NCBI RefSeq assembly: GCF_000196355.1 | Contig: NC_007614.1 | Location: 450,001 to 482,000, forward strand | Length of the DNA: 32,000 nucleotides | Direction: 5' to 3' | Origin: Nitrosospira multiformis ATCC 25196 | GTDB taxonomy: Bacteria > Pseudomonadota > Gammaproteobacteria > Burkholderiales > Nitrosomonadaceae | In this document: piece by piece, positions 563 through 24,983 of the stretch | Layout of the letters: each line of letters begins with the position of its first letter | Position numbering within the stretch: the stretch's first letter is position 1 | Notes under the pieces: model-generated | What the model saw: only the letters and a program-made list of their open reading frames with translations | Told to the model about the DNA's origin: nothing | The model's database searches: none | Made by a program: the position numbers and the translations under genes

Positions 563-1768
563 TCATGAGTACGCTTCCGCTTCAGCGGAGTCATGTCGTA
601 TGGTTTCTCTTGATCGGAGAATCAAGTCGCATACCTCGCGAACCGCGCCGTGGCCACCCGAATATTCACACATATAATGGGCCTGCCGCACGACCAGGGG
701 GACAGCATCCGCCGGGCAGAAGGCAACGCCTACGCGGCTCAGGCATTCCAGATCGCTGAGGTCATCACCCACATACCCGATATTTTCCAGAGGAACCCCC
801 CAGCGTTTGGAAAGCTTTAGGAGGAGAGGAAATTTATCGCTTATGCCCGGGTAGTATTCGTCGATGCGCAATTTTCTCATCCTTGCTTCAACGGAAGGAC
901 TAGTCTCGGTGGTGATTACGCAAACCCCGAGGCCATGTTCACGCAACCGTTGCAAACCATGGGCGTCGCGAGTATTGAATTTTTTCAAGGCTTCGCCGGC
1001 GGGGCCGTAATACATTCCCGCATCCGTCAACGTTCCGTCCACATCGAGTACCAGAAACTTGATTCGTGACGCGCGGGCTTGGACCGACCCCCGTTCCTGC
1101 TCCCGTAAAAGACGCTCCACGATGTTCCAGCCAGCCTCTCCGGTGATCTCGATCGCAGTTTCGGGCGCCATCTCGTGAATACCCATGCGTCCACCCAGAT
1201 AATGATCGTTGTCTCGAAGTAATTTTTCATGTGTCAGATAGAAGGCGCCATTTTCCAGCAGGTATCCCTCCGGATTCGATGCATCGCATGACGCACGGGA
1301 TTTTAGCGGGTCATGACCGACGGGTTCTCCCATCCTTGTCCACAGAAACCGTCTGGACGGCGCAGCTGTCAGAAGCGAGTCAAGATTTTCCGAAAGAAAT
1401 TTGCGCTTAGCGGCACGAAAATCTTCAGCACGCGTGAGGGGCGAGGCTGCCTGTATTGAACAGACGACGTCGAAGGGGATCTTCTGCTGAAACGTGTGTA
1501 GGAGACTGGTCCAATTCTCTACGCCCGTACGGGTTGCGCCACTGCAATCGAGAATCTCGATTATCGTGTCGGCTCGCGAAAATTCTTCCACTATCCGTTT
1601 TCGAATGACAGGCGGGTCGGCAGTTACGTAAATGGTGTCGAAACATCCCGATATGACGGCCTGCTCCAAGCTCCAGGAAAATAATGGCCTTCCCGCCATG
1701 CTGCGTGCGCTGCTTCGGGAAACCGGCCCGAAATTTCCATGCAAAGGCGCGAAAGCTACCCAGCGCAT
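563..1768 (-). CDS. NeuA-like (acylneuraminate cytidylyltransferase fold) N-terminal domain fused to a KdsC-type HAD phosphatase C-terminal domain
   Basis: 401 aa with an ATG start at 1768-1766. The N-terminal ~225 aa align to CMP-sialic acid synthetases (…CFDTIYVTAD…, IQAASPL, ENGAFYL). The C-terminal ~165 aa (about nt 566-1063) carry HAD motifs: FLVLDVDGTLTD (DxDxT) and GDDLSD, with KdsC-like spacing. The start overlaps the neuB-family stop by 1 nt (TGATG). Confidence 0.8.
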   Translation of the reverse strand: MRWVAFAPLHGNFGPVSRSSARSMAGRPLFSWSLEQAVISGCFDTIYVTADPPVIRKRIVEEFSRADTIIEILDCSGATRTGVENWTSLLHTFQQKIPFDVVCSIQAASPLTRAEDFRAAKRKFLSENLDSLLTAAPSRRFLWTRMGEPVGHDPLKSRASCDASNPEGYLLENGAFYLTHEKLLRDNDHYLGGRMGIHEMAPETAIEITGEAGWNIVERLLREQERGSVQARASRIKFLVLDVDGTLTDAGMYYGPAGEALKKFNTRDAHGLQRLREHGLGVCVITTETSPSVEARMRKLRIDEYYPGISDKFPLLLKLSKRWGVPLENIGYVGDDLSDLECLSRVGVAFCPADAVPLVVRQAHYMCEYSGGHGAVREVCDLILRSRETIRHDSAEAEAYS

Positions 1769-2646
1769 CAGTTAAAGTGAACCCCTTGTACGCGCTTGAG
1801 TTTGTCGCGTTGTGCAAGCTCGATTTCCGTCATGTCTCCCTCCTTGAACTTCAGGGTCTTGCAGACATTGCGAACATCACGGACCAGCCTGCGCAATCCG
1901 TCGGGCTCCAGCGAAGCGGCATGATCGGTTCCCTTCCAGGTCCGGTCCAGCGTGAAATGACGTTCGATCCAGGATGCCCCCAGGACCACAGTCGCAATGT
2001 CGATGGCAATACCCAGGTGGTGGCCGGAAAATCCAACCTCCTTGACGCGCGAGCCGAACCTGTCCCTCAGTGACTGGATTTCCAGCAGACAGACTTGGTC
2101 GAACGGAACTGGATATCCGGATGTACATGCGTAGAGGACGACTCGACCAGCAGCACCGTGGCGTTCCATCCATTGCACGACCTGCTCCTGTTCGGCGGGA
2201 GTGGTCATGCCGACGGATATGTGAATATCCCCGGCGTAATCGGTGGCAAGATATGCCAGCATGGGGAAATTGAGGTTGCACGCCGAAGGTATCTTGATGA
2301 ACTCTGGGTTGAGGCGGGCAATCTCCTTTGCCGAAGTCAGATCCCAGACCGACGTCGAATAACCGATCCCAAACTCTTGGCACCATTGCTGCAATTGGCG
2401 GTGCTGATCCACATCAAACTCGAGGAATTCACGATGAGCGCCGTAGCTGTCGCCATAACTGTTTTGAGGATTTGGATGGTGCGCGTTATATTCCTCGGGC
2501 GTCAATAATTCCCTGTTCGAACGCTTTTGAAATTTCACGAAATCGCATTTGGCGAATGTCGCGGCGATTCCGATCATCTCTCTTGCAATTTCGATATCCC
2601 CTTTATGATTACAGCCGATTTCAGCAATGACTCGTGGTGTCTTCAT
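1768..2646 (-). CDS. neuB: NeuB-family sugar-acid synthase (PEP-condensing nonulosonate synthase type), TIM-barrel only with no C-terminal SAF/antifreeze-like domain
   Basis: 292 aa with an ATG start at 2646-2644. Family signatures: VIAEIGCNHKGDIEIAREMI, DFVKFQKR, FIKIPSACNLNFPML, HISVGMTT, GFSGHHLGIAID, IERHFTLDR. The protein ends about 20 aa after the barrel (…KLKRVQGVHFN*), where full-length NeuB/PseI/LegI have a ~60-aa SAF domain. Confidence 0.88.
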   Translation of the reverse strand: MKTPRVIAEIGCNHKGDIEIAREMIGIAATFAKCDFVKFQKRSNRELLTPEEYNAHHPNPQNSYGDSYGAHREFLEFDVDQHRQLQQWCQEFGIGYSTSVWDLTSAKEIARLNPEFIKIPSACNLNFPMLAYLATDYAGDIHISVGMTTPAEQEQVVQWMERHGAAGRVVLYACTSGYPVPFDQVCLLEIQSLRDRFGSRVKEVGFSGHHLGIAIDIATVVLGASWIERHFTLDRTWKGTDHAASLEPDGLRRLVRDVRNVCKTLKFKEGDMTEIELAQRDKLKRVQGVHFN

Positions 2647-2772: not shown

Positions 2773-4173
2773 CTACCCATTGATCCTGAACAGATGCTTG
2801 GAGTGCTGTTTGACCCGGATGGCACCGAACCGATTCAATAAGCGGCCAAATCGCGCAATTTTCTGCTCGATCTGCGCGACCGAAATCTCGGGAAACCGAT
2901 GGTCATGGTAGGATAACCGGTTGGGTCCGGGCCGACGCATGTTCAGGCTGGTTAATGCGGTTTTCAGGTTGGTAAGTGCCCATCCGCCGATGTACGTCCC
3001 GGCAGGACTCGCCGGCGGCTGGGTCCTGCCATAGCCGCTGTCTTCCAGAACATCGACGATGCGTTCGCACGCCAGGCGACCATTTTGCGCCGCCAGGTAA
3101 TAATCGATGAGTGTCCTGCGCTCCTCGCCCCCCGCAACGCCCAGTTCGCCATGCAGGATCCGGGATAGAGTATCCTCCAATTCATCGAAATTAAACGACT
3201 GATAACTGAGTTTGGTGGGCAGGCCCTGAAAATCATAGTCGTAGTATTCATTGAAGGTGGCTAGGTAGGAGATGGCCGGCACCCCCAAGGCATAGGCTTC
3301 CAGCCCGGTCGTGCAGCCGTTGTGCACCATCGTTTTTGAAGCCAGAAGCCAGGGAATAACATTTCCTTCATTGGTGACCTTCACACGCCGGCATTGGGCG
3401 GCGATATCGTCGTACACTTGGAAATTTTCGCTCGGATGCGGTCGTACGACGATCGTGACATCCGGGAATGCCCGTTCCAGTGCCGGAATGAGCTGCTTGA
3501 AATCCTCCAGTATGGCTTGCTTGTGATGCCACAGCCCCTCAGCGAATTCATTGCTCATGCCTATTCCGGCTTGTCCGCGCCGAGATTTTTTTCCACCATC
3601 CTTCGGGGGAATGAACAGTCCAATGCTCGGGATGAAGGGATTGACGTCGGTGAAATTGGTATTGACGAGGATGAAATCACCGTAAAGGCCGCGTAGTCTT
3701 TCCACCTCTGCTGCAAAGTAGGCACGCATTTCGGGTCTCAGAATGTCTCCTCGCGGATTACCGGTGACGTGGATAGGCATGCCTGCCGGAAGCTGTGGAT
3801 ATTGCTGAAGCAGATCGACATTTTCCTGCCCCCAGGCAAAAATATGAGAGACTTTCCTGATCGTGATGGGAGACAGCCGCAGTGTGAAATATGTGTCGGC
3901 CGGTGGGTGAACCAGCGCCTCTTCTTCCCATGCGACAATCTCGTGCCCGAGCATGCGGAGAATCCGGAACATCGAATTGCTCAGGCTGCGCATGCTTTTC
4001 GCTAGGTATACTCCACGTGGAAGTGACGCAACCTCGAAATGAATGAAGGCCCGAGAACCAATGACAACCGGAAAACCACGTTCCGCTGCCACGCAAGACA
4101 AGAGGAGTTTCGCATCCAGTTCGCGAACTTGATTTTCAACGGGAATGATGAGGGTTGACGCAGATGTTGCCAT
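2773..4173 (-). CDS. surface carbohydrate biosynthesis protein (GT-B-like; resembles the TIGR04396-type family found in nonulosonic acid loci, from memory)
   Basis: The listed ORF 2773..4206 starts at TTG. The first ATG (4173-4171) gives MATSASTLIIPVENQVRELDAKLLL…, which matches how I remember this family beginning. C-terminal Rossmann-like motifs: IVVRPHPSEN and MVHNGCTTGLEAYALGVPAISY. The start is uncertain by 33 nt. Confidence 0.72.
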   Translation of the reverse strand: MATSASTLIIPVENQVRELDAKLLLSCVAAERGFPVVIGSRAFIHFEVASLPRGVYLAKSMRSLSNSMFRILRMLGHEIVAWEEEALVHPPADTYFTLRLSPITIRKVSHIFAWGQENVDLLQQYPQLPAGMPIHVTGNPRGDILRPEMRAYFAAEVERLRGLYGDFILVNTNFTDVNPFIPSIGLFIPPKDGGKKSRRGQAGIGMSNEFAEGLWHHKQAILEDFKQLIPALERAFPDVTIVVRPHPSENFQVYDDIAAQCRRVKVTNEGNVIPWLLASKTMVHNGCTTGLEAYALGVPAISYLATFNEYYDYDFQGLPTKLSYQSFNFDELEDTLSRILHGELGVAGGEERRTLIDYYLAAQNGRLACERIVDVLEDSGYGRTQPPASPAGTYIGGWALTNLKTALTSLNMRRPGPNRLSYHDHRFPEISVAQIEQKIARFGRLLNRFGAIRVKQHSKHLFRING

Positions 4174-4547
4174 GTTTTCCAAGCTTCGGGTTAGCAAATC
4201 CAGCAACTCATTATCGCATTATCAGTCGAAGTAATCATTCACAACCGCTAACGAAGCAAGTTGGAGCATTCCGACGCGAAGACTACCCTGAACGGGTCCC
4301 GCGACTGAGGGCTTTCGGAGATCGGGAACACAAGGGATAGGGGTATAAGGGATACAAGAATATGGGTCATGATTATGACATAGGGCACGGGGAGACGTCC
4401 GGGGGGCAGTCGGGGAATCGAATTTACTCTCAAGCGATCCGAAGACAAACGGGGGTAATTATATCCAGTTCTACATTGGTTTAGGACTCACTGTCTGGAG
4501 AACCACTCGGGTATGGCATAGAGCACGGGTTTGTAAGTTCACGCTGC

Positions 4548-7509: not shown

Positions 7510-8619
7510 TCAGCATTTTTCATTTTCCAATACCTCCCAGCAGTGTGCGAGAACCTGAAAAATCAGGGGGTTGCTGGAAATAGCGGCAATTTCATGGTTC
7601 AGCCAGAACGAGGGTTTGGTCCAGTTGAAGCTCCCAAAAATCGACCAAGCGTGATCGCCATCCTCCACCAGCACGAATTTAAGGTGCATGGGAAGCCGCT
7701 CGGGATTCCGGATACGCCTGAACCGGATTCCGGCGGAAGCCAGCCGTCGTTCCACTTTAGGCGTGACGCGTCTATGCGTCGACTCCGCGAATATTTCCAG
7801 TGTAGTGCCCCGCCTGGCAAGCCCTGCCATAACGTCAACCGCACTTTCCGTCCTGATATGTGATGCGACGACACGTATACGGGCACCGCTGTTGACCCGG
7901 CTCAGGAACTGCACGACGGGATGTGGACTGACCCGAGGCCAGAAATGAATTGTGGTATCCGCGCCATGGATGATGCGGCTTGCATGGGTCGAGAACCGAT
8001 AGAAGAGGCCCGGCGGCGACCGGTGAATCTGCCTTGCATGATTCACCAGTCCCTCGACCAGTACCGGATCGTTGAGTCCAACCAACGCATTGTAGCCACG
8101 GTCCTGATCACCGATTTCCCGAATGAGCTCGGGATCGTCTTCCGGCATATTGCCCGAGGGATTGAAGGATCCAATAAAGGCAACGGGTTCTGGATGTGAA
8201 AAACAGTAGAGTTTCTCGTGTAACTGGGGCTTCCACGATTTTGTCGCGGGTGACGGTACGCCGGGGATGGCTATGATGCGAAATGCATCGCCCAGTCCTC
8301 CGGGTCCCGAGAGCATTTTGATCACCGCATCATTGGCGTGAGGAATGCGCGGCCTGCCTTCCAGGCTCAGGGTGACCTGGACGCCCCGCTTGCGCGCCTG
8401 AATCAGCGCTTCCGCCAGACGGAGGTCACGAAAATAATAGGTTACCCAGTCAATGGATCCCCCGGAGGGAACAGCTGTGATGTGTGCGGCCAGAACGTCG
8501 CGCAGATGACCCGGAGCCTGATGGGGACCGCCAAAGTAAATCTCGACCGGAACGGTCTCCATTTCGCTTAGCAAGCCTGAAGAGGGCGGTCTGGGGGAAT
8601 GTGCAAGCGACTTGCTCAA
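7510..8619 (-). CDS. phospholipase D / cardiolipin-synthase-like superfamily protein with two HKD motifs
   Basis: 369 aa. HKD-1 is HEKLYCFSHPEPVAFIGSFNPS and HKD-2 is HLKFVLVEDGDHAWSIFGSFNWT. The listed start is TTG (8619); an alternative ATG lies at 8562 (METVPVEIYFGG). Confidence 0.85.
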   Translation of the reverse strand: MSKSLAHSPRPPSSGLLSEMETVPVEIYFGGPHQAPGHLRDVLAAHITAVPSGGSIDWVTYYFRDLRLAEALIQARKRGVQVTLSLEGRPRIPHANDAVIKMLSGPGGLGDAFRIIAIPGVPSPATKSWKPQLHEKLYCFSHPEPVAFIGSFNPSGNMPEDDPELIREIGDQDRGYNALVGLNDPVLVEGLVNHARQIHRSPPGLFYRFSTHASRIIHGADTTIHFWPRVSPHPVVQFLSRVNSGARIRVVASHIRTESAVDVMAGLARRGTTLEIFAESTHRRVTPKVERRLASAGIRFRRIRNPERLPMHLKFVLVEDGDHAWSIFGSFNWTKPSFWLNHEIAAISSNPLIFQVLAHCWEVLENEKC

Positions 8620-8662: not shown

Positions 8663-10567
8663 TCATGCCAGCCTGCGGCTTTGCGGATGAGCAGATTCTA
8701 CTGTAGTTCCGGTGCGTGTCTGTTTCCTGGAAGTGGACGCTATTACGAGGCGGAAGAAATCAACCAGTTCTGGGACATGATGATCGAATGTGAACAGGTG
8801 CCGCTGCTGCCAGACCCGCTCACGCGTCGCTCGCAACTGCTTGCAGTCGCGCAACTGTGCGGCGAGCTCATCCACGGTATCAAAAAAAATTCCAATATCA
8901 AGCTGCTTTGCTAATGTACGAGTGGCGACGAGAGCATCCTCATTCGCCTTCTGCAGCATCGGCAGGCCGGCCGCTGCAAGGGTACTCAGCCTTGCCGGGT
9001 AGTTCAGGTCATCCCAGTTTGCCCGCCTGATTTCCCCTCTGTTGCTGCTTTCGAAGAGATGCAGCCAGCCCGCGTCATATTGGGAGAACTCGGCAGTCCA
9101 GTGACTTTGATCCACGTTCGGGTGTAAATGCAGGTAGTCTGGCGCGATTGCTTGGGTTTTTTCAATCCATTGCAGCCATTGTCCATGGGTTATCTCCCCA
9201 TAAAAATGCAGATGAATGCCATGGTGGGCCAACTCCGCAACATGATGCGGATGCAGCCCGATGGGTCGTCCGGGTGATACGGTATGAATATCCCCTTCGC
9301 TTTCAGAACGCAGCGGCGCACGAGGCTGATCAAACCAGTCACGCTTCGGCAGGTCTCCATCCAGCACGTGGGTGGGTTTATCCAGCGACAAACCGGGAAT
9401 GATGGTATCAAACCAATCCCGCATTTCGGGGCTGGAGAAGATTTGGCCGTTCGAATACCGGTGCAGGTCGATCAGTTGCGGCCAGGTTCCCTTTTCAAGA
9501 CAGATGAAAGGACCTTCCTTGAAATGCCAGACGAAAGGAATGCCGTGCGTGGCCATCAATACCTCATGTGCAAACGGCACTGCCTGCCAGTTGAGCAATG
9601 CATAGATAACATCAGGCTGCACCTGCTTCACTGCTTCGCGCCAGTTGTCGCGCGGCAGGTCCTCCACATGCCCAAAAGGCATCGGCCCTACCGTGTTGTA
9701 CCAGTACGGGTTCTGCATCCACAGGCCATACAGCTTGTGTCCCCGCTCTTCCAGGGCAAGCACGCGCTCGGCGTTATAGGCCAGTTCTCCTACCAGAAGT
9801 ATTTTCAACCCGTTGTCGGCACGAGGAGTATCCGGCCGTTCGCGCATTTTTCGGTAATGGTCCGCTTCATCGATCCGATGGCCTACGGTTGTATGAAAGC
9901 GCAGCGGTTCTTTGACCCGATAATGGGAGCGAAACGTGTTGATGCCGCCTTCCGGTTCCTGCATGATCTTGTGGCGTTGCATCGGGTGGGAGACCCACTC
10001 GCAGGTAAGAGTTCCGCTTTCGGCAAAAGCGCCGAGGGGCCGCAGCAGGCTCCAGTAGAGGCGCTCAAGATCATCCGACTCCAATTCTGCGCGCTCCACC
10101 CACCGCACCGGCATTTTCCGATGCATGCACTGCACCAGTTGCAAAGGAAATTCCGGAATTTGCCCAATGGCCTCGCGGTTGTAATGGTGGCGAACGCCTG
10201 AACAAGCCAACACAGCGCCTTTCTGCGTCTCGAGGCATGTTTTCAGGCTGCCCAGGTGATCGCGGTAATAAACATCATCGGTTGGCAAGTAAGCGATGAG
10301 CGGCGCTTTTGCTTTGGCAATGCCTTCATTCAGGGTGCGACCCAACCCCCGATTTTCGGGAAAGCGATAGTAATGAATGCGGGTGTCGCCCAGGTATGCC
10401 GATACGACTTCGGCTGTAGCATCCCGTGAACCATCGTCGATGACGACTGCTTCCCAATCCGTCAAAACCTGCGCCTGCAGGCTGTCCAACGCGCGGCCAA
10501 TGAATCGTGCTTGCTCATAAGTGGGAACTACTACGCTGACTGAGGGAGAGTATGTCTGCGGCATCAT
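8663..10567 (-). CDS. bifunctional-looking glycosyltransferase: N-terminal GT2 domain plus a C-terminal GT-B (GT4-like) region
   Basis: 634 aa with an ATG start. GT2 signatures: VSVVVPTYEQARFIGRALDSLQAQ, VVIDDGSRD, YLPTDDVY. The C-terminal half starts with LKILLVGELAYNAE… and ends with a GT-B-like …YPARLSTLAAAGLPMLQK…. Confidence 0.85.
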   Translation of the reverse strand: MMPQTYSPSVSVVVPTYEQARFIGRALDSLQAQVLTDWEAVVIDDGSRDATAEVVSAYLGDTRIHYYRFPENRGLGRTLNEGIAKAKAPLIAYLPTDDVYYRDHLGSLKTCLETQKGAVLACSGVRHHYNREAIGQIPEFPLQLVQCMHRKMPVRWVERAELESDDLERLYWSLLRPLGAFAESGTLTCEWVSHPMQRHKIMQEPEGGINTFRSHYRVKEPLRFHTTVGHRIDEADHYRKMRERPDTPRADNGLKILLVGELAYNAERVLALEERGHKLYGLWMQNPYWYNTVGPMPFGHVEDLPRDNWREAVKQVQPDVIYALLNWQAVPFAHEVLMATHGIPFVWHFKEGPFICLEKGTWPQLIDLHRYSNGQIFSSPEMRDWFDTIIPGLSLDKPTHVLDGDLPKRDWFDQPRAPLRSESEGDIHTVSPGRPIGLHPHHVAELAHHGIHLHFYGEITHGQWLQWIEKTQAIAPDYLHLHPNVDQSHWTAEFSQYDAGWLHLFESSNRGEIRRANWDDLNYPARLSTLAAAGLPMLQKANEDALVATRTLAKQLDIGIFFDTVDELAAQLRDCKQLRATRERVWQQRHLFTFDHHVPELVDFFRLVIASTSRKQTRTGTTVESAHPQSRRLA

Positions 10568-10681: not shown

Positions 10682-12001
10682 TCACCTGTTTTCAATTCTC
10701 GATGCCTGAGCTTGTGTTTCAAGCAGTGTCACATAACGCGGCAATACATCGGACCCGCCCACGTGAAGCATTTCGTTGATGAAGCGTTGCCGGTGTTCCT
10801 CTACATAGAATGAATCGCAGCCATTGGAAAGAAATCCGTCGATTTTCCGGTATACATCATCCCGGCACTTCAATTCCGTCTCCGGCATGAAATGCGCCAG
10901 GGTAGAGCGACCGGCGTGCAGGTAGTCGGCAGCGAGCACCGGTTTTTTTCCTTTGACTGCTTCAAATACTACCGAAGTGGCAAGATCGATAATGACATGG
11001 GCCCAGTTCATCAGATGAACGGAATGGATTTGGTCGGGTGCCACGCTCACATTGGGGAGGTCACGCAACGAGGTATTTCTGGTCAGGGGTTGTCTCCAGC
11101 CGCCACGGGTATGAGGTTTGATCACCAGTTCCACATTCGGAAAAGCTGCAATCATTCCCACAATTTCCTCGACCTCTTCCCAGAAGGTCGTAAAGTTACT
11201 CTTTCTCAGGAATATCAAGACTTTAAGGCCTTTTGTTTTCGTGGACTCCTTCACTCTTTTTGGCTCCTTCCCGGGGTGGATAGCAGGCGGGGCGGGAGAA
11301 AGTTCTGCCAATTTCACCAGCCACTCGTCACAGTAGCGAGGGGAGCCGAGGACGGCGATGGATTGATCGTCCAGGAATGGGCGAAAACGTTCCGCGCATA
11401 ACTCGTTGGGGACCACCAGCTTGTCGAATATGCTTGCTGCGGAGTAGAGGGAATTCGGCTTGAGACTCCGCTCGTGATGCCGTATCAGCTGGCTGGCATG
11501 CGGACTGTCTCCGTGTGGCAACGAAACCGTGCCCAGACCCTTGCTCCGCGCGAGGGAAACAACCACTTCGACCCATTCCACCGAAACAGGCGAATCCCTT
11601 GTGATCCAGTCAAACACCACTACGCCTCTGTCAGCAGCGGTGAAGCTGCGTTCCAGCAATCTGCCGGCAGTGCTGCGCCAGATCGATTGACGCCGGTCTA
11701 CCCTGTACGCGCGAGCAAGTGCATCGACAAGCGGACCCATTATCGATCGTCGCAAGCGGCTGGCCAGAAGCAGTGTCTGTAGCCGCCACCCTAAAAATTC
11801 CCAGGAGGGCAGGAGATCGCGAATATGGGCAACACGCGCCCCCTCCAGTGTACCCAGAAATTCAACACGGTAATCATTACGGAATTTCGGATTGCCTATC
11901 AATACAACATCGCACCGGTGACCGGACTCGAGCCATTTTGAGATAACCGGTGTAATATGGTCTATATCATTGTAATGTCGGAGAAAAAAGAGCGCTTTCA
12001 T
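10682..12001 (-). CDS. uncharacterised conserved protein, paralogue A (GT-B/epimerase-like features; family not recognised)
   Basis: 439 aa with an ATG start. It is about 70% identical to the product of 27865..29187 (42/60 identical over the first 60 residues by manual count). Conserved blocks: MKALFFLRHYNDIDHITPV, GTVSLPHGDSPHASQLIR, IKPHTRGGW, IIDLATSVVFEAVK-GKPVLAADYLHAGRS. Confidence 0.8.
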   Translation of the reverse strand: MKALFFLRHYNDIDHITPVISKWLESGHRCDVVLIGNPKFRNDYRVEFLGTLEGARVAHIRDLLPSWEFLGWRLQTLLLASRLRRSIMGPLVDALARAYRVDRRQSIWRSTAGRLLERSFTAADRGVVVFDWITRDSPVSVEWVEVVVSLARSKGLGTVSLPHGDSPHASQLIRHHERSLKPNSLYSAASIFDKLVVPNELCAERFRPFLDDQSIAVLGSPRYCDEWLVKLAELSPAPPAIHPGKEPKRVKESTKTKGLKVLIFLRKSNFTTFWEEVEEIVGMIAAFPNVELVIKPHTRGGWRQPLTRNTSLRDLPNVSVAPDQIHSVHLMNWAHVIIDLATSVVFEAVKGKKPVLAADYLHAGRSTLAHFMPETELKCRDDVYRKIDGFLSNGCDSFYVEEHRQRFINEMLHVGGSDVLPRYVTLLETQAQASRIENR

Positions 12002-12316: not shown

Positions 12317-13270
12317 ATGATAAATAAGGAACTGGATGCGGGATACCAGGAAGGTAATATTGTGCAGATGCTGACGATAGAGCCGGGGGCCGACCTGAGG
12401 GCACCCGAGTTGCAGCGTGCGGCAATCGACATGTTGGAAGGGGGTGGTGTCATCTATCTGCCCAAAAGTGGATTTGAGTTGTCCTGCCATGAGAGAGAGC
12501 TGATTTCGGATACGGCGAATATCCTGTCTCGAACGCCAGATGTCGAGGATGGACGTCCAACCATCATTTTTGATCCAGAGCGTGGGCGTATCAAGAAGTA
12601 TCATTATGCCCAAGTGCGGGGAAAGATGATGCGGGCTCAGGTCAAGAACACAGCCCGTCCCCAGATCGAGGCGATGATGTCGCGCTACAGCAAATGGACA
12701 GAGAGTGTCATCACTCAATTGTTTCCCAGCTATCAGGGAGCCTTGGAGCGGAAACGCGTTACTTATCGTCCTTTCCCCCGTAATAACATCCAATCCCTGC
12801 ACATTGATTCAAGCTACGGCTATCCCACCCAGGGACGAGGCATGCTGCGTGTGTTTTCCAATATCAATCCCACTGACAGGCTGCGTATCTGGCAGCTCGG
12901 CGAACCGTTTGAACCCTTCGTGCGGCGCTTTTTGCCTGCCGCGCACCCGAGTGAGCCGAGTTGGATCACCTCTATCCTGGGTCGCCTCGGCATCATAGAC
13001 GGCCCCAAGACCCGATACGACCGTTATATCGCAACGCTGCGTTCGCTCGGCATGCGCGACAAGGAGTACCAGCGGACGGCCCCGCGCAAGATCATGGAAT
13101 TTCCTGCAGGCGCGAGCTGGATTGCGATCACCGATCTGGTGTTGCATGGGGCCATATCGGGGCAGCATAGTCTCGATCAGACCTTCTATTTGCCCGTGGA
13201 GGCGATGAAGGATTCCTCGCGCTCATCATTGCGCATTCTGGAGAGGTTGGCGGGCAAGGCTTTGGTTTAA
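12317..13270 (+). CDS. kdoO: Kdo hydroxylase (KdoO)-like Fe(II)/2-oxoglutarate dioxygenase family protein
   Basis: 317 aa with an ATG preceded by AAGGAA. It matches my recollection of the KdoO/Kdo_hydroxy family: …LHIDSSYGYPTQGRGMLRVFSNINP…RIWQLGEPFEPF…, …MEFPAGASWIAITDLVLHGAISGQHSLDQTFYLP…. The HxD-type facial triad is plausible (HID…H). Assigned from memory, not from a search. Confidence 0.62.
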   Translation: MINKELDAGYQEGNIVQMLTIEPGADLRAPELQRAAIDMLEGGGVIYLPKSGFELSCHERELISDTANILSRTPDVEDGRPTIIFDPERGRIKKYHYAQVRGKMMRAQVKNTARPQIEAMMSRYSKWTESVITQLFPSYQGALERKRVTYRPFPRNNIQSLHIDSSYGYPTQGRGMLRVFSNINPTDRLRIWQLGEPFEPFVRRFLPAAHPSEPSWITSILGRLGIIDGPKTRYDRYIATLRSLGMRDKEYQRTAPRKIMEFPAGASWIAITDLVLHGAISGQHSLDQTFYLPVEAMKDSSRSSLRILERLAGKALV

Positions 13271-13464: not shown

Positions 13465-14769
13465 ATGAGTGCCTGGAGTCTCGACAGAATTACGCAGGCA
13501 TTGAGTGGTGCAATGTGGACGTTTTCCTCTCTGCCTGAGGACAACTCGGCCGCCACTTTCGTCCATCGATGTTTCCGGCGGGAAAGCTGGCGAGGTGCCG
13601 GGTTTCGCGAACGCACCCTCATGTATGCAGCCTTACCGTTTGCGCCATTCGTCACCCTGGTGTTGGCTATCGCCTTCACTGCGCTTAACGGACAGGCTAT
13701 AAAGAAGCGGACCGGAAAAGGGATAATCCGGCAAATCCGGGAACAGTTTGAGATTGCGCTGCGATACGCGATTTTGCCCCCCTGGTATTATATTTTTGAA
13801 CTGCATGACGGCGACAAGCGGCGGCGCGCTTCTGAATACATCAACCGCTTTGAAGTAAAAACCTGCCTCTACCGCATCCTCCGTGACTACAATGGCGGCC
13901 TTCCCATCCCTGCAGAGCGCAGTACCTTCTGCATCAAGGACAAATTATGCTTCCTGTCACGCTGTCGCAGGTTCTCTATTGCCACAGCTCCTGTGTTTTT
14001 GATTGTCTCGAAGGGGGAGATCAAAGCAATTGATTGGGGCGGGTCCCTGCTCCCGGAAACCGATCTGTTCGTGAAACCGCTCCAGGGGGAGAACGGAAGG
14101 AACGCGGTACGATGGGATTATCTGGGTTCGGGGCAATATCGGCGCAACGATGGTAAACACGCCACCGCTCAAGAGGTGCTGGAGGGGTTATGCAAGGCAT
14201 CATGGCGCAGGTCTTTCCTGGTGCAGCCCCGGCTTATTAACCATAGAGAAATTGCCGATCTTGCAAATGGCACCTTGGCGACGATACGGGTAATGAGTTG
14301 CCGCAATGAGCGGGGCGAATTCGAGGCAACCAATGCGGTTTTTCGAATGGCGCAAAATGAGACCGTAGTTGTCGATAACTTTCACAGAGGCGGAATCGCA
14401 GTCAATGTCGATCTTCATACCGGCAAATTGGGAAGGGGCGCCTGCGGAGCGTGGGGATCCACAGGAGGAGGATGGTACGAGCGACATGACAAGACGGGTG
14501 TGCAGATTCTGCACCGCGAGCTTCCGTGCTGGCCCGAGTTGCTCGCGATGGTTCGATACGCCCATGGGAGCGCCTTCTCCGACCAGGTGGTAATCGGCTG
14601 GGATGTTGCCCTGCTCGACAGCGGGCCGTGCATGGTTGGAATCAACAAGGCCCCCGATCTGGACATGATCCAGCGGATAAGCCGGCGTCCGCTGGGTAAC
14701 GAGCGGTTCGGAAAGCTTCTGGCATTCAACCTGGAACGCACTGTCGAGGCTGTGCATCAATCTTCTTAA
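13465..14769 (+). CDS. sugar-transfer-associated ATP-grasp family ligase (ATPgrasp_ST-like), copy 1, with an N-terminal hydrophobic anchor
   Basis: 434 aa. ATG 13465 is the first start after an in-frame TGA at 13405-13407. ATP-grasp C-terminal signatures: LFVKPLQGENGRN, DNFHRGGIAVNVDLHTGKLG, GWDVALLDSGPCMVGINKAPDLDMIQ. A hydrophobic stretch is present (AALPFAPFVTLVLAIAFTAL). It is ~73% identical to copy 2 over a hand-counted 101-aa block. Confidence 0.8.
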   Translation: MSAWSLDRITQALSGAMWTFSSLPEDNSAATFVHRCFRRESWRGAGFRERTLMYAALPFAPFVTLVLAIAFTALNGQAIKKRTGKGIIRQIREQFEIALRYAILPPWYYIFELHDGDKRRRASEYINRFEVKTCLYRILRDYNGGLPIPAERSTFCIKDKLCFLSRCRRFSIATAPVFLIVSKGEIKAIDWGGSLLPETDLFVKPLQGENGRNAVRWDYLGSGQYRRNDGKHATAQEVLEGLCKASWRRSFLVQPRLINHREIADLANGTLATIRVMSCRNERGEFEATNAVFRMAQNETVVVDNFHRGGIAVNVDLHTGKLGRGACGAWGSTGGGWYERHDKTGVQILHRELPCWPELLAMVRYAHGSAFSDQVVIGWDVALLDSGPCMVGINKAPDLDMIQRISRRPLGNERFGKLLAFNLERTVEAVHQSS

Positions 14770-22503: not shown

Positions 22504-23285
22504 CGCTGCAAAGTTACGCTTCTACTCAGCTTCTTCTCGCTGAAGAGCTCTTCTGCCTTTATCAGATCAGCGGGAAAATCAATTTCACACCAGGAGCTTT
22601 CCGGTACAAAACACGCTTTTACCAGTTGTCTGCTGGCAAGGTTCTCTATTATGGAGAGATACCAGGCTTTGAGTCCACTCTGATGTCGCAGCGCTTCCTC
22701 CAGGGTATCGCGAAAAAGCAGCGGTCCACGTTCTCTGAAAAGAACAAGGCCGACAGATTCGGCATCGATCCGATCTGCCGGCAGCGTTTTGCTGACATGT
22801 CTGACCCATCCGTTTTCATCCAGTTGGACTTTCATGTCATCCGCATCATAGGCAGGTTTTTGATCTACACCGAGCGTAACAGGCGCTGGATCAGAGTTCA
22901 GCACTCTCGCCAGTAAAACTTCCTCAAACAGCGTATCCCCGTTCAGAAGCAGAAAGTCGCGGTCCATGGCCGATCGGGCGATCCAGCAACTCACCAGGTT
23001 ATCCGTAATACTGAAAAAAGGGTTGAAAACGGTCTCGATCCTTCCATCGTTTCCATAACGCTGTTGCAATAAAGTTTCAATCAGGCAGGATTGGAAACCG
23101 GTGATCACTGTCACCAGGTTGATCCCTGTTGACAGCAGGGCATCGATCTGCCATTCGATGATAGGTTTGCCGGAAATTGGCAACAGGCATTTGGGAATAC
23201 TGGTTGTCAGTGGACCCAGCCGGTGCCCCTGGCCGGCGCTCAGAATAATCGCCTTGACAGGAGGTTTTTCTTCGCTACCCGCCAT
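22500..23285 (-). CDS. sugar-/alcohol-phosphate nucleotidyltransferase (LicC/PntC/MobA-like NTP_transferase family)
   Basis: 261 aa with an ATG start. Motifs: KAIILSAGQGHRLGPLTTSIPKCLLPISGKPIIEWQIDAL, then …FNPFFSITDNLVSCWIA…FLLLNGDTLF, as in LicC-type cytidylyltransferases. Confidence 0.85.
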   Translation of the reverse strand: MAGSEEKPPVKAIILSAGQGHRLGPLTTSIPKCLLPISGKPIIEWQIDALLSTGINLVTVITGFQSCLIETLLQQRYGNDGRIETVFNPFFSITDNLVSCWIARSAMDRDFLLLNGDTLFEEVLLARVLNSDPAPVTLGVDQKPAYDADDMKVQLDENGWVRHVSKTLPADRIDAESVGLVLFRERGPLLFRDTLEEALRHQSGLKAWYLSIIENLASRQLVKACFVPESSWCEIDFPADLIKAEELFSEKKLSRSVTLQR

Positions 23286-24975: not shown

Positions 24976-24983
24976 CTGCTGTT

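What the first reader, a model, noticed from the sequence alone, without database searches (positions are those of the whole stretch)
10682..12001. Unrecognised ~440-aa protein family present in two diverged copies; candidate new transferase class for ulosonic acids
The products of 10682-12001 (-) and 27865-29187 (+) are collinear paralogues, with 42/60 identities over the first 60 residues by hand count. I cannot place them in a named family.

Conserved blocks suggest a two-Rossmann (GT-B, UDP-GlcNAc-2-epimerase or TagF-like) architecture:
- an N-terminal beta-strand plus loop, MKALFFLRHYNDIDHITPV
- a His-rich central block, GTVSLPHGDSPHASQLIR
- IKPHTRGGW
- IIDLATSVVFEAVKxGKPVLAADYLHAGRS

Copy A carries a Lys-rich ~19-aa insertion (AIHPGKEPKRVKESTKTKG) that copy B lacks. 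Both copies are retained at this divergence, and both sit next to ulosonic-acid genes. They are therefore good candidates for the otherwise missing transferases that use the CMP-activated acids made in this locus.
Basis: partly seen in the sequence, partly recalled or inferred. Interest (0 to 1): 0.7.

Follow-up and report, generated by a model that had tools for sequence, protein, structure and literature searches.

The report
Uncharacterised GT-B transferases beside Kdo-activating genes
Two diverged copies of an unnamed, widespread two-domain (GT-B) enzyme family sit in a Nitrosospira surface-sugar locus and, across many bacteria, sit next to the gene that activates Kdo-type acidic sugars, so they are most likely a new sequence family of transferases that attach such sugars; this has not been shown biochemically.

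Summary
ORFs 10682-12001(-) and 27865-29187(+) are paralogues: 63% identical over 433 aa, 42/60 in the first 60, and every quoted motif is present. Neither hits Pfam at E<=10.

The window is Nitrosospira multiformis ATCC 25196. The family is large (1,027 50%-identity clusters).

An AlphaFold model (pLDDT 91.9) is a GT-B fold. Its nearest solved structures are UDP-GlcNAc 2-epimerases, then GT1/GT4 enzymes, at fold level only (12-14% identity).

Sequence links are weak and confined to the C-terminal half. They point to CMP-ulosonate transferases:
- Tannerella BFO_1060 Pse/Leg transferases: 33/53 members, best E 9e-11.
- KpsC: E 0.02.

The N-domain has no detectable relative, and the QxxxD nucleophile motif of retaining Kdo/Pse transferases is absent.

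Genome context is the strongest evidence. 47/59 family genes have a CMP-sugar synthetase within 5 kb. B-type copies sit next to a KdsB-like gene in 49/52 loci, and the link persists at 31-45% identity. Some members are fused to TPR repeats.

Best reading (about 0.55): an inverting CMP-Kdo-type glycosyltransferase family.

One correction: the transferases are not all missing, because ORF 2773-4206(-) next to NeuB is a TIGR04396/BFO_1060-like protein. Function is inferred, not shown.

The parts
10682..12001 (-). Copy A (439 aa): uncharacterised GT-B family protein, 'A-type' subfamily
   Evidence: ORF and translation. No Pfam hit. AF2 GT-B model with pLDDT 91.9 and Foldseek matches. A-type orthologues are followed by a PLD-like gene in 22/30 loci.
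27865..29187 (+). Copy B (440 aa): paralogue of copy A, 'B-type' subfamily. Distant family members score higher against B than against A.
   Evidence: 63% identity to copy A. 49/52 B-type orthologues have a divergent KdsB-like gene upstream. All 11 distant members tested give higher bit scores to B than to A.
11957..11971 (-). NDIDH motif (aa 11-15) in the beta1-alpha1 loop of the N-domain; candidate catalytic or acceptor-binding residues
   Evidence: Conservation among 53 diverse members: N11 50/53, D12 49/53, D14 52/53, H15 46/53. Coordinates verified.
11507..11521 (-). LPHGD motif (aa 161-165) after a strand of the N-domain; H163 is nearly invariant
   Evidence: P162 52/53, H163 52/53, G164 46/53. 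Coordinates verified.
11105..11119 (-). KPHTR motif (aa 295-299) in the C-domain; a variant of the 'HP' nucleotide-phosphate motif
   Evidence: K295 45/53, H297 52/53, R299 47/53; position 298 is T in 33 and P in 13 members. It aligns with 'vkvHP' of KpsC and 'RPHPSE' of TIGR04396. Coordinates verified.
11231..11266 (-). Copy-A-specific 12-aa Lys-rich insertion (EPKRVKESTKTK) in the inter-domain linker
   Evidence: Gap in BLASTP. Only segment with pLDDT <50 (residues 247-255). Coordinates verified.
26740..27507 (-). KdsB-like CMP-ulosonate synthetase, divergent from copy B; the family's most conserved genomic partner
   Evidence: Pfam CTP_transf_3 E 9e-45. NF009905 292.5 bits against a cutoff of 255. 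Orthologues (37-55% identity) are the nearest CMP-synthetase in 8 of 10 distant loci.
22500..26689 (-). Rest of 'cassette B': HpcH/HpaI-type aldolase (25928-26689), PGDH-like 2-hydroxyacid dehydrogenase (24984-25931), SDR epimerase/dehydratase (24046-24975), HAD phosphatase (23408-24049) and NTP_transferase (22500-23285). Proposed to supply the sugar acid that the KdsB-like enzyme activates.
   Evidence: Pfam and NCBIfam. Nearly always syntenic with B-type genes in the 29 B-type Nitrosomonadaceae loci >=15 kb (HAD/Epim/KdsB-like in essentially all, HpcH and 2HADH hits each missing from a few maps). Present again in distant loci L082, L083, L086 and L088.
7510..8619 (-). PLD-like (PLDc_2, two HKD stretches) protein; conserved downstream partner of A-type genes
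   Evidence: Pfam E 1.1e-20. Downstream in 22/30 loci. In N. eutropha L013 its ORF overlaps copy A as a stand-alone pair.
8663..10567 (-). GT2 glycosyltransferase (634 aa) lying between copy A and the PLD-like gene in this strain
   Evidence: Pfam Glycos_transf_2 E 5e-25. Found at this position only in N. multiformis loci L001 and L002.
12317..13270 (+). KdoO-like Kdo 3-hydroxylase, divergent from copy A
   Evidence: Pfam Kdo_hydroxy E 2.5e-90. Directly upstream of A-type genes in L001, L002, L023 and L027.
13465..14769 (+). ATP-grasp_ST amidoligase, copy 1
   Evidence: Pfam PF14397 E 9.5e-31. 67% identical to copy 2.
21181..22503 (+). ATP-grasp_ST amidoligase, copy 2 (co-duplicated with the GT-B family)
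   Evidence: Pfam PF14397 E 4.8e-30. 67% identity to copy 1. It lies between the A-type gene and PLD in L022, L023, L027 and L037.
2773..4206 (-). TIGR04396 'surface carbohydrate biosynthesis protein' (BFO_1060-like GT-B); the likelier transferase for the NeuB product
   Evidence: TIGR04396 E 1.1e-128 (430 bits, cutoff 125) and NF046086 E 1.4e-14 over aa 20-376. NeuB lies within 1 kb of 18/22 such genes. Only C-terminal, weak similarity to the A/B family (hhalign probability 26%).
563..2646 (-). NeuB-type synthase (1768-2646) and CMP-synthetase fused to a KdsC/Kdn-9-P-phosphatase-like HAD domain (563-1768): 'cassette A', a NulO pathway via a phosphorylated intermediate
   Evidence: Pfam NeuB E 3.6e-72 and CTP_transf_3 + HAD. 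NF007019 KdsC E 4.6e-46 and NF058599 Kdn-9-P phosphatase E 4.7e-36.
29096..30280 (+). GT2 glycosyltransferase (394 aa) downstream of copy B; its ORF overlaps the end of copy B by 92 nt
   Evidence: Pfam. A GT2_394 homologue follows the B-type gene in most Nitrosomonadaceae loci that lack a tandem second B-type copy.

Best explanation
Copies A and B belong to a large, unnamed sequence family of GT-B enzymes. I propose they are glycosyltransferases that take a CMP-activated 2-keto-3-deoxy sugar acid (Kdo, or a Kdo-like product of the adjacent KdsB-type synthetase) and attach it to a surface-glycan or lipid-linked acceptor at the cytoplasmic face of the membrane.

Proposed mechanism (inferred, not shown):
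- The C-terminal Rossmann domain binds the CMP moiety. H297/R299 of KxH(T/P)R would contact the phosphate. T342/S343/E347 of 'TSxxFEA' would contact the ribose/base.
- The N-terminal domain supplies a general base: H15 with D131, or H163 with D165. This base deprotonates the acceptor hydroxyl for direct, inverting displacement of CMP.
- There is no QxxxD nucleophile, so the covalent-adduct retaining mechanism of GT99/GT107/GT118/GT140 is not expected.
- A variable, basic helical insertion (about aa 60-120) would tether the enzyme to the membrane or to an anionic acceptor.

Roles of the two copies:
- Copy B (closer to the distant members) works with the divergently transcribed cassette: KdsB-like, HpcH aldolase, 2-hydroxyacid dehydrogenase, SDR and HAD.
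- Copy A (the more diverged paralogue) works with a PLD-like protein. Because the A+PLD pair also occurs alone in N. eutropha, it probably uses a housekeeping donor such as CMP-Kdo.

What is shown: paralogy, GT-B fold, family size, conserved residues, gene neighbourhoods and fusions. What is inferred: transferase activity, donor, stereochemistry and acceptor.
For: 1. Fold. The AF2 model has pLDDT 91.9 and pTM 0.92. All 50 Foldseek PDB hits shown are GT-B proteins, with E down to 1.6e-12.
2. Sequence relatives. 33/53 diverse members hit NF046086, the family of the knock-out-validated Tannerella Pse/Leg transferases (best E 8.9e-11; PMC5420450). The only PDB profile hit is the beta-Kdo transferase KpsC, aligned on its HP-motif region (E 0.023). 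Pfam Capsule_synth (KpsC/KpsS) matches 9/53, against Glyphos_transf 2/53 and Epimerase_2 1/53.
3. Context. 47/59 family genes have a CTP_transf_3 homologue within 5 kb and 53/59 within 10 kb. B-type genes have a divergent KdsB-like gene in 49/52 loci. In 10 of 11 distant loci (31-45% identity) a CMP-synthetase is nearby, and in 8 of those 10 it is an orthologue of the window's KdsB-like gene at 37-55% identity.
4. The link is to the synthetase, not to the aldolase. L085 reads Wzm / Wzt(+Wzt_C) / family / sulfotransferases / KdsB-like. L087, L090 and L091 have the KdsB-like gene but no HpcH.
5. Fusions. 6 of 10 long members carry TPR repeats and 1 carries a methyltransferase, as expected for enzymes acting on macromolecular acceptors.
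6. Copy number. Tandem B-type duplicates occur in 11 loci, and several genomes carry 2-3 copies. This is typical of transferases with different acceptors or linkages.
7. Insertion. The helical insertion is basic (mean net charge +4.2, positive in 85% of members), the rest of the protein is near neutral, and no TM helix is predicted.
Against: - There is no biochemical or genetic evidence for any member.
- All sequence similarity to known CMP-ulosonate transferases is weak, far below family cutoffs (17.5 / 23.7 bits against 200), and confined to the C-terminal nucleotide-binding half. That half could be shared by any nucleotide-binding GT-B enzyme.
- The closest solved structures are UDP-GlcNAc 2-epimerases, not transferases. 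KpsC, WbbB and TagF are not among the 50 Foldseek hits shown.
- The N-domain, which holds most invariant residues, has no detectable relative. Such strong N-domain conservation is unusual for transferases with varied acceptors.
- Six A-type loci have no CMP-synthetase within 10 kb.
- The identity of the sugar activated by the KdsB-like enzyme is unknown.
- The assigned residue roles come from topology and my own recollection of other GT-B enzymes, not from a docked or superposed model. No coordinates were accessible.
Confidence: 0.55

Rival explanations
1. Pathway enzyme rather than transferase. The family would be a NeuC/PseG-like nucleotide-sugar hydrolase or hydrolysing 2-epimerase. It would release a free aldose from an NDP-sugar (made by the neighbouring SDR). 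The HpcH aldolase would condense that aldose with pyruvate, and the KdsB-like enzyme would then activate the product.
For: - The best structural matches are UDP-GlcNAc 2-epimerases (E 1.6e-12, TM 0.55-0.68). The hydrolysing epimerase NeuC (5xvs) is also matched.
- One family member hits Pfam Epimerase_2 at E 8e-7.
- Cassette B otherwise parallels Pse/Leg pathways (SDR, GT-B hydrolase, synthase, CMP-synthetase) and lacks an obvious source of free sugar.
- The N-domain is rich in invariant Asp/His/Asn, as in enzymes that act on a fixed small substrate.
Against: - TPR-repeat fusions in 6/10 long members argue for macromolecular substrates.
- The family stays with the KdsB-like gene where no aldolase or NeuB is present: L085 (with Wzm/Wzt), L087, L090 and L091.
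- It coexists with bona fide Epimerase_2 genes in L081, L082 and L084.
- Tandem duplicates and 2-3 copies per genome are seen against one cassette.
- The A-type + PLD pair stands alone in N. eutropha.
- By sequence, only 1/53 members hit Epimerase_2 against 33/53 for BFO_1060, and no epimerase appears in PDB profile searches.
Confidence: 0.12
2. A GT-B glycosyltransferase with an ordinary NDP-sugar donor. It would add a common sugar next to, or onto, the ulosonic-acid residue, and it would co-localise with the KdsB-like gene only because both build the same glycan.
For: - The GT-B fold has GT1 and GT4 enzymes among the top structural hits.
- Pfam Glyco_transf_4 matches weakly in 4/53 members.
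- Glycan loci routinely mix transferases of many specificities.
- Similarity to CMP-dependent enzymes is weak.
Against: - The specific, long-range conservation of adjacency to one CMP-synthetase subtype (8/10 distant loci; 49/52 B-type) is tighter than expected for a bystander transferase.
- The minimal pair L087 (family + KdsB-like only) would leave the CMP-sugar without a user.
- The conserved KxH(T/P)R aligns with the HP motif of CMP-dependent KpsC and TIGR04396.
- No members hit UDP-dependent family models at significant E-values.
Confidence: 0.15
3. A TagF/TagB-like phosphotransferase. It would transfer an alditol- or sugar-phosphate from a CDP-activated donor, building a teichoic-acid-like phosphodiester polymer. 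This is what some UniRef entries already call these proteins.
For: - UniRef names several orthologues 'CDP-Glycerol:Poly(Glycerophosphate) glycerophosphotransferase'.
- Glyphos_transf matches weakly in 2/53 members and TarB in 1/53.
- The TagF-like polymerase 8qoy was a Foldseek hit (rank 36, E 4.4e-9).
- TagF-like capsule polymerases also carry TPR domains (my recollection of the literature).
- The family has two nearly invariant His (H163, H297). I recall TagF having two key His, but this was not tested here.
- An NTP_transferase with weak IspD / inositol-phosphate-cytidylyltransferase similarity lies at 22500-23285.
- The PLD-like partner of copy A is a phosphodiester-chemistry enzyme.
Against: - Neither copy hits Glyphos_transf at E<=10.
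- The conserved partner is a CTP_transf_3 (CMP-sugar) synthetase, not a TagD/TarI/IspD-type CDP-alcohol synthetase.
- The NTP_transferase is present in only 11/51 Nitrosomonadaceae loci and not next to the distant members.
- CMP-sugars carry a single phosphate, so they cannot donate a sugar-phosphate.
- TagF structures are not among the 50 Foldseek hits shown for the high-confidence model.
Confidence: 0.1

Closest known systems
BFO_1060 family (NF046086): Tannerella forsythia Tanf_01245 / TFUB4_00887 pseudaminic / legionaminic-acid-derivative transferases (PMC5420450)
   Same: - Soluble, TagB/GT-B-like, with a CMP-ulosonate donor and an HP-type His motif in the C-terminal half.
- This is the model hit by most family members (33/53, best E 8.9e-11).
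- Encoded beside CMP-sugar synthesis genes.
   Different: - Copies A and B score only 17.5 and 23.7 bits (cutoff 200) and match profile positions ~209-349 only, i.e. the C-terminal half.
- The N-domain is unrelated at sequence level.
- The genomic partner is a KdsB-type synthetase, not a Pse/Leg pathway.
- The true BFO_1060-like protein of this window is ORF 2773-4206.
Retaining beta-Kdo / Pse transferases: GT107 KpsC, GT99 WbbB, GT118 KpsS1, GT140 KrkA (PMC12887879, PMC10148158, PMC9587256)
   Same: - CMP-Kdo-type donor (proposed) and a modified or extended GT-B fold with helical insertions.
- HP-region similarity: KpsC is the only PDB sequence hit (E 0.023), and Pfam Capsule_synth matches 9/53 members.
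- One family member sits next to Wzm/Wzt(+Wzt_C) and a KdsB-like gene (L085). By my recollection this resembles WbbB-type chain termination.
   Different: - The QxxxD motif with the Asp nucleophile that defines these retaining enzymes is absent. The equivalent segment is FLR(K/N)xx(Y/F) with no conserved Q or D.
- Neither window copy hits Capsule_synth.
- These structures are not among the 50 Foldseek hits shown.
- An inverting mechanism is therefore more likely.
Inverting Kdo transferases: GT30 WaaA and the unassigned ELM1-like KdoT of Acinetobacter (PMC12856342)
   Same: Predicted inverting GT-B enzymes that use CMP-beta-Kdo at the membrane surface. KdoT shows that unassigned GT-B Kdo transferases were still being discovered in 2025.
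   Different: - No meaningful sequence match: Glycos_transf_N matches 1/53 members at E 0.13.
- KdoT is about 35 kDa with an SRRT motif. The A/B family is about 49 kDa with NDxDH / PHGD / KxH(T/P)R motifs.
UDP-GlcNAc 2-epimerases (Pfam Epimerase_2; WecB/MnaA/NeuC)
   Same: Best structural neighbours (E 1.6e-12, TM 0.54-0.68). Similar domain size and order of secondary-structure elements.
   Different: - 12-14% identity.
- No Pfam or PDB sequence match for A or B.
- The epimerases have fewer residues (349-384 against 439), consistent with lacking the ~60-residue helical insertion.
- Context and TPR fusions do not fit a soluble epimerase.
TagF/TagB CDP-glycerol glycerophosphotransferases (Pfam Glyphos_transf)
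   Same: GT-B-like with a cytidine-nucleotide donor. Some databases label orthologues this way. Both families show TPR fusions (the TagF side is my recollection).
   Different: No hit for A or B, and 2/53 weak hits in the family. The partner synthetase is CMP-sugar type, not CDP-alcohol type.

Membership tests
GT-B fold superfamily | Two Rossmann-like alpha/beta domains with a C-terminal helix returning to the N-domain | tested here: met
   AF2 model with pLDDT 91.9 and pTM 0.92. Strands and helices alternate in both halves, and a long C-terminal helix spans residues 419-438. Foldseek finds 317 PDB matches at E<=1e-3, and all 50 shown are GT-B proteins.
BFO_1060 family glycosyltransferase (NF046086) | Full-length match at or above the curated cutoff of 200 bits | tested here: not met
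   17.5 bits (A) and 23.7 bits (B), covering the C-terminal half only. 33/53 family members give weak hits, best E 8.9e-11.
TIGR04396 surface carbohydrate biosynthesis protein | Match to the model at or above 125 bits, or profile-profile homology over both domains | tested here: not met
   No hit for A or B. 6/53 members hit weakly. hhalign of A2 against A3 gives probability 26%, E 7e-4, C-terminal domain only. ORF 2773-4206 is the true member.
Retaining ulosonate transferases GT99/GT107/GT118/GT140 | QxxxD motif with an absolutely conserved Asp nucleophile at the start of the C-domain (PMC12887879) | tested here: not met
   Family positions 264-270 read F-L-R-(K/N)-x-x-(Y/F). No Q or D is conserved there or nearby.
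Retaining ulosonate transferases GT99/GT107/GT118/GT140 | HP motif (His contacting the CMP phosphate) and a Capsule_synth-type sequence match | tested here: inconclusive
   H297 is conserved in 52/53 members and is followed by P in 13 and T in 33. It aligns with KpsC 'vkvHP' at E 0.023. Capsule_synth hits 9/53 members (best E 0.0029) but neither window copy.
TagF-like phosphotransferases (PF04464 Glyphos_transf) | Pfam match | tested here: not met
   No hit at E<=10 for A or B. 1/34 close and 2/53 diverse members hit weakly.
TagF-like phosphotransferases (PF04464 Glyphos_transf) | A CDP-alcohol donor supplied by a TagD/TarI/IspD-type cytidylyltransferase | tested here: not met
   The conserved neighbour is CTP_transf_3 of KdsB type. 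An NTP_transferase is near in only 11/51 loci.
UDP-GlcNAc 2-epimerase (PF02350 Epimerase_2) | Pfam/TIGR00236 match | tested here: not met
   No Pfam hit for A or B. 1/53 members match at E 8e-7, and wecB TIGR00236 matches 1/53 at E 0.15.
UDP-GlcNAc 2-epimerase (PF02350 Epimerase_2) | Catalytic acid/base residues (Asp/Glu/Glu/His in E. coli WecB) at equivalent 3D positions | not testable with these tools
   Model coordinates and Foldseek residue alignments are not returned. Only fold-level similarity is available (TM 0.54-0.68, 12-14% identity).
GT30 WaaA Kdo transferase | Pfam Glycos_transf_N match | tested here: not met
   1/53 members at E 0.13 and none for A or B.
CMP-ulosonate-dependent glycosyltransferase (functional class, not a sequence family) | Transfer of a 2-keto-3-deoxy sugar acid from its CMP ester to an acceptor | not testable with these tools
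   Only indirect support is available: the CMP-synthetase neighbourhood, weak C-terminal homology and TPR fusions.

The most novel reading that the evidence does not exclude
The A/B family would found a new CAZy-type glycosyltransferase family of inverting CMP-Kdo-type transferases. It would have its own catalytic N-domain (NDxDH / FDW / LPHGD) and no QxxxD nucleophile.

Its conserved partner cassette (HpcH-type class II aldolase, PGDH-like dehydrogenase, SDR, HAD phosphatase, KdsB-like synthetase) would make a CMP-activated ulosonic or ulosaric acid. This route would use pyruvate and an aldolase rather than the PEP-dependent KdsA/NeuB-type synthases, and it has not been described. The sugar would decorate the envelope of ammonia-oxidising bacteria and other environmental lineages.
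Probability: 0.3. Interest if true: 0.75.

Novelty: new variant of a known kind. Interest (0 to 1): 0.55.

Why it matters
Transferases for Kdo, sialic-acid-like and other ulosonic acids are notoriously hard to recognise from sequence. New CAZy families were still being founded in 2024-2026: GT118 for KpsS1, GT140 for KrkA, and the still unassigned KdoT.

This family has about a thousand 50%-identity clusters, no Pfam model and no characterised member. It is present, often in 2-3 copies, in what look like most sampled Nitrosomonadaceae, the main bacterial ammonia oxidisers of soils and wastewater plants.

Assigning it would:
- name thousands of 'hypothetical' or mislabelled ('CDP-glycerol glycerophosphotransferase') genes;
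- give a handle on the unexplored envelope glycans of nitrifiers, which bear on aggregation, biofilm/granule formation and phage susceptibility;
- possibly expose an aldolase-based route to a new CMP-activated sugar acid.

It would not overturn any principle. GT-B enzymes that use CMP-sugars are a known kind.

Tried and rejected
Libraries that were unavailable:

Searches that found nothing or too little:
- Single-sequence and close-family profile searches of PDB sequences found nothing.
- An N-domain-only profile found only a spurious designed helical repeat.
- hhalign of the family against the window's TIGR04396 protein, alone or as a 27-sequence profile, gave only a weak C-terminal match (probability 33% and 26%). 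I therefore rejected the idea that copies A and B are simply diverged TIGR04396/BFO_1060 members.
- The search for related loci with the diverse alignment failed because no stretch was conserved enough. The close alignment returned only Nitrosomonadaceae, so distant contexts had to come from the look-up of encoding contigs.
- tblastn against PLSDB plasmids gave no match.
- The cluster look-up gave no names or organisms for distant members.

Literature:
- Searches for TIGR04396, NulO in Nitrosomonas, an HpcH + cytidylyltransferase ulosonic pathway, and Dha/ulosaric acid found nothing on this family or cassette.
- The SugarBase preprint reports new CMP-ulosonic acids, but not in nitrifiers and not via an aldolase.

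Other checks:
- Promoter and terminator scans around both genes were at shuffle expectation.
- GC content is flat at 52-56%, so there is no compositional sign of an island.
- The first AF2 model, built from close homologues only, was mediocre (pLDDT 75.6). It was superseded by the diverse-alignment model.

Idea rejected:
- That the 19-aa Lys-rich stretch is functionally special. It is a 12-aa net insertion in a disordered linker, specific to copy A.

Full report
**1. The observation**

The two ORFs are real. Copy A is 10682-12001(-), 439 aa. Copy B is 27865-29187(+), 440 aa.

They are collinear paralogues. BLASTP gives 271/433 identities (63%), E = 0, with one 12-residue gap. DNA identity is 68% over 918 nt.

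Two details need correcting:
- The net insertion in copy A is 12 aa (EPKRVKESTKTK, window 11231-11266). It lies in the inter-domain linker, the only low-confidence stretch of the model.
- The pattern 'AVKxGKP' fits copy B but not copy A (AVKGKKP).

Neither protein hits any Pfam model at E<=10. NCBIfam gives only 17.5 / 23.7 bits to NF046086, against a cutoff of 200. PDB sequences give nothing. 'Unrecognised family' is therefore correct.

**2. Source and size of the family**

The neighbouring ORF 2773-4206 is 100% identical to a protein of Nitrosospira multiformis ATCC 25196. The best hits for copy A are Nitrosospira/Nitrosomonas proteins labelled 'hypothetical'. In a few UniRef entries they are labelled 'CDP-Glycerol:Poly(Glycerophosphate) glycerophosphotransferase'.

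A pattern scan of one genome per species returned 265 confirmed loci. The best 80 were almost all labelled Nitrosomonadaceae or unclassified beta-/proteobacterial MAGs (one was labelled Verrucomicrobiota), and several genomes appear 2-3 times.

An exhaustive profile search of 1.84 billion cluster representatives found 1,027 clusters at E<=1e-3 and 214 at E<=1e-30. This is a large, broadly distributed family.

**3. Fold**

A 53-sequence alignment with mean identity 29% (A2) gave pLDDT 91.9 and pTM 0.92.

The model has two alpha/beta domains, a helical insertion at roughly residues 60-120, a disordered linker (247-255) and a long C-terminal helix.

Foldseek against the PDB gives 317 matches at E<=1e-3:
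- UDP-GlcNAc 2-epimerases fill the top 18 places (E 1.6e-12 to 5.5e-11, TM 0.51-0.68, 10-14% identity).
- GT1 and GT4 glycosyltransferases follow.
- In the first search, a TagF-like capsule polymerase (8qoy) also appeared.

**4. Sequence relatives**

Scanning the 53 diverse members one by one gave these counts:

| Model | Members hit (of 53) | Best E |
|---|---|---|
| NF046086 BFO_1060 | 33 | 8.9e-11 |
| Pfam Capsule_synth (KpsC/KpsS) | 9 | 0.0029 |
| TIGR04396 | 6 | 1.3e-5 |
| Pfam Glyco_transf_4 | 4 | 0.00053 |
| Pfam Glyphos_transf (TagF) | 2 | 0.0099 |
| Pfam Epimerase_2 | 1 | 8.1e-7 |

BFO_1060 belongs to the Tannerella forsythia enzymes Tanf_01245 / TFUB4_00887. Their deletion removes the terminal pseudaminic or legionaminic-acid derivative from the S-layer O-glycan. 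They are described as TagB/GT-B-like with D/E-D/E-G and HP motifs (PMC5420450).

The family profile's only real PDB hit is the beta-Kdo transferase KpsC (6mgb_A, E 0.023). It aligns family positions 277-351, including KxHxR, with KpsC 'vkvHP…'.

All of these matches cover the C-terminal, nucleotide-binding half only. An N-domain-only profile finds nothing real in the PDB.

**5. Family signature**

In copy A numbering, with counts out of 53:

| Motif or residues | Conservation |
|---|---|
| FFxRxxNDxDHxxP (5-18) | N11 50, D12 49, D14 52, H15 46, P18 53 |
| D43xR45 | 53, 53 |
| FD131W | D131 52 |
| LPH163GD | P162 52, H163 52 |
| D193…PN199 | D193 46, N199 43 |
| LG219SPR222YxxEW227 | G219, R222 and W227 invariant |
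| FLR266 | R266 34 |
| E276 | 46 |
| K295xH297(T/P)R299 | H297 52 |
| W333 | 49 |
| T342S343xxFE347A | T342 43, S343 47, E347 40 |
| K353P354 | 40, 44 |
| Y399 | 52 |

The retaining beta-Kdo/Pse transferases (GT99, GT107, GT140; the related GT118) use an Asp nucleophile. In GT99, GT107 and GT140 it lies in an absolutely conserved QxxxD motif (PMC12887879). The A/B family has no conserved Q or D at the equivalent segment. It is therefore not a member of that clade, and a direct-displacement (inverting) mechanism is more plausible.

The helical insertion is poorly conserved but consistently basic (mean net charge +4.2, positive in 85% of members). The rest of the protein is near neutral, and no TM helix is predicted. 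This fits a peripheral membrane enzyme or one that binds an anionic acceptor. That reading is inference.

**6. Genome context (the strongest evidence)**

The window is a surface-glycan locus. In gene order it contains:
- a CMP-synthetase fused to a KdsC/Kdn-9-P-phosphatase-like domain, then NeuB, then TIGR04396;
- a second CMP-synthetase, GFO/IDH/MocA and SDR;
- PLD-like, GT2, then copy A;
- KdoO, ATP-grasp_ST, Wzy_C;
- an IS element;
- GtrA-PMT_2, a His-phosphatase and an unknown ORF;
- a second ATP-grasp_ST;
- NTP_transferase, HAD, SDR, 2-hydroxyacid dehydrogenase, HpcH aldolase and a KdsB-like gene;
- copy B, then GT2.

In the 51 Nitrosomonadaceae loci of >=15 kb, two orthologous groups separate cleanly:
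- B-type genes lie divergently next to KdsB-like<HpcH<2HADH<SDR<HAD. Counting all B-type genes with enough flank in all 80 loci, a divergent KdsB-like gene lies upstream in 49/52. The 10 largest distances (about 2.4 kb) are consistent with the downstream gene of a tandem B-B pair.
- A-type genes are followed by the PLD-like gene in 22/30, often with TIGR04396>NeuB>CMP-synthetase beyond it.

HMM-based tabulation over all 91 loci found 100 family genes. Of the 59 with >=5 kb on both sides, 47 have a CTP_transf_3 homologue within 5 kb and 53 within 10 kb. The six exceptions are all A-type + PLD pairs. In N. eutropha this pair (overlapping ORFs) stands alone between kdpABC/kdpD and a GST gene.

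**7. Does the link survive deep divergence?**

Yes. Eleven loci carry members only 31-45% identical to A/B. Ten of them have a CMP-synthetase nearby, and the exception is a 6-kb contig. In 8 of those 10 the nearest one is an orthologue of the window's KdsB-like gene (37-55% identity, 161-272 bits). NeuA-type synthetases, where present, lie further away.

The whole aldolase cassette recurs in L082, L083, L086 and L088. The family also occurs with the KdsB-like gene but without any aldolase:
- L085: Wzm, Wzt with a Wzt_C domain, the family gene, two sulfotransferases, KdsB-like.
- L087: the family gene and a convergent KdsB-like gene only.
- L090 and L091.

The family therefore tracks the enzyme that makes the CMP-sugar, not the enzymes that make the free sugar. 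That is what one expects of the consumer of the CMP-sugar.

By my recollection, the L085 arrangement resembles WbbB-type O-antigen termination, in which a terminal beta-Kdo is read by the Wzt carbohydrate-binding domain. This was not tested here.

**8. Fusions**

Of ten family members longer than 570 aa, six carry TPR repeats (N- or C-terminal) and one carries a Methyltransf_24 domain.

TPR + GT-B is known from OGT and from TagF-like capsule polymerases (established knowledge, not tested here). It implies a macromolecular acceptor. This argues against the rival suggested by the Foldseek ranking, namely a soluble NeuC/PseG-like nucleotide-sugar hydrolase or epimerase feeding the aldolase.

Three further points count against that rival:
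- Tandem duplicates occur in 11 loci.
- The family coexists with genuine Epimerase_2 genes.
- The A+PLD pair stands alone in N. eutropha.

**9.

ORF 2773-4206(-), which heads the NeuB operon, has no Pfam hit but is a full-length TIGR04396 protein (E 1.1e-128). It also matches the BFO_1060 transferase model over residues 20-376 (E 1.4e-14). NeuB lies within 1 kb of 18/22 such genes in the fetched loci.

It is thus the natural candidate for transferring the NeuB product, so the locus is not devoid of candidate ulosonate transferases.

Its relation to A/B is remote. hhalign gives probability 26%, E 7e-4, over the C-domain only, with KPHTR aligned to RPHPSE.

A simple pairing fits the data:
- TIGR04396 pairs with the NeuB-type nonulosonic acid.
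- The B type pairs with the KdsB-like product.
- The A type is a diverged paralogue working with PLD, often next to KdoO and an ATP-grasp_ST. It may use housekeeping CMP-Kdo on a lipid or LPS-core acceptor.

The last point is speculative.

**10. Verdict**

The best explanation (confidence about 0.55) is a new sequence family of inverting GT-B glycosyltransferases that use a CMP-activated Kdo-type sugar acid.

Rivals:
- A GT-B transferase with an ordinary NDP-sugar donor in the same pathway (0.15).
- A NeuC/PseG-like pathway enzyme (0.12).
- A TagF-like phosphotransferase (0.10).

No literature on this family, on TIGR04396 or on the aldolase cassette was found. Recent papers show that new Kdo/Pse transferase families are still being defined.

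Novelty: a new variant (a new sequence family with a distinct N-domain) of a known kind (GT-B enzymes using CMP-sugars).

Interest is moderate, at 0.55. It is testable and useful for annotating nitrifier envelopes. There is a possibly more novel side-finding in the aldolase-based cassette. It is not conceptually surprising, and the function is not demonstrated.

Noticed in passing
window 2773-4206 (-): This 477-aa ORF has no Pfam hit but is a full-length TIGR04396 'surface carbohydrate biosynthesis protein' (E 1.1e-128). It matches the Tannerella Pse/Leg transferase model BFO_1060 over aa 20-376 (E 1.4e-14). It heads the NeuB / CMP-synthetase operon and is the likelier NulO transferase. It is itself uncharacterised, and no literature was found.
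   Followed up: partly
window 22500-27507 (-); also L082 11305-15491, L086 2569-6692, L088 11289-13735: A conserved cassette of KdsB-like synthetase, HpcH/HpaI-type class II aldolase, PGDH-like 2-hydroxyacid dehydrogenase, SDR and HAD phosphatase recurs next to family members across deep divergence. It looks like an undescribed, aldolase-based (pyruvate- rather than PEP-dependent) route to a CMP-activated ulosonic or ulosaric acid. The product is unknown.
   Followed up: partly
window 13465-14769 (+) and 21181-22503 (+): The two 'sugar-transfer associated' ATP-grasp (PF14397) genes are also paralogues (67% identity over 425 aa), so a GT-B + ATP-grasp pair seems to have been duplicated together. 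In Nitrosomonas loci the ATP-grasp lies between the A-type gene and PLD. It may amidate a sugar carboxylate.
   Followed up: partly
window 7510-8619 (-); L013 10001-12435: A PLD-like protein (two HKD-type PLDc_2 stretches) is the most constant neighbour of A-type genes (22/30). In N. eutropha the two ORFs overlap and stand alone between the kdp operon and a GST gene. This suggests a two-enzyme module acting on a phospholipid or phosphodiester-linked acceptor.
   Followed up: partly
window 563-2646 (-): The NeuB homologue is short (292 aa, no SAF domain). The adjacent CMP-synthetase is fused to a KdsC / Kdn-9-phosphate-phosphatase-like HAD domain. This points to a Kdn-like pathway through a 9-phosphate intermediate, with no NeuC-type epimerase in the window.
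   Followed up: no
window 16415-17172 (-): An IS4/IS5-family transposase is split into two ORFs (DUF4096, then DDE_Tnp_1). It is inserted between the Wzy_C gene and the GtrA-PMT_2 gene, which are direct neighbours in the maps of other N. multiformis strains (L001, L002). The IS itself was not used as a query in those loci.
   Followed up: no
L085 179-6546: A distant family member (39% identity) sits directly after Wzm and Wzt (with a Wzt_C carbohydrate-binding domain) and before two sulfotransferases and a KdsB-like gene. The layout is reminiscent of WbbB-type O-antigen chain termination by a terminal Kdo.
   Followed up: no
proteins P0173, P0172, P0189, P0223, P0240, P0253, P0156: Natural fusions of the family domain to TPR repeats (six proteins, N- or C-terminal) and to a Methyltransf_24 domain (one protein). 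L090 and L091 also contain radical-SAM and methyltransferase genes next to the family gene and two CMP-synthetases.
   Followed up: partly
window 29096-29187: The 3' end of copy B overlaps the longest ORF of the downstream GT2 gene by 92 nt. Either the two are translationally coupled or the GT2 start is further downstream.
   Followed up: no
UniRef names of P0002, P0020, P0087, P0111: Some orthologues are labelled 'CDP-Glycerol:Poly(Glycerophosphate) glycerophosphotransferase' in UniRef, although Pfam Glyphos_transf does not match the window proteins at E<=10. This is probably an over-propagated annotation.
   Followed up: partly
L050, L061, L064, L066, L069, L070, L073, L074, L076, L077, L079: In many of these loci two family genes lie in tandem after the cassette; in the nine of these loci long enough to be mapped, the pair is followed by a Wzy_C gene. 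In Nitrosospira a single B-type gene is followed by a GT2. The subfamily has expanded repeatedly.
   Followed up: no
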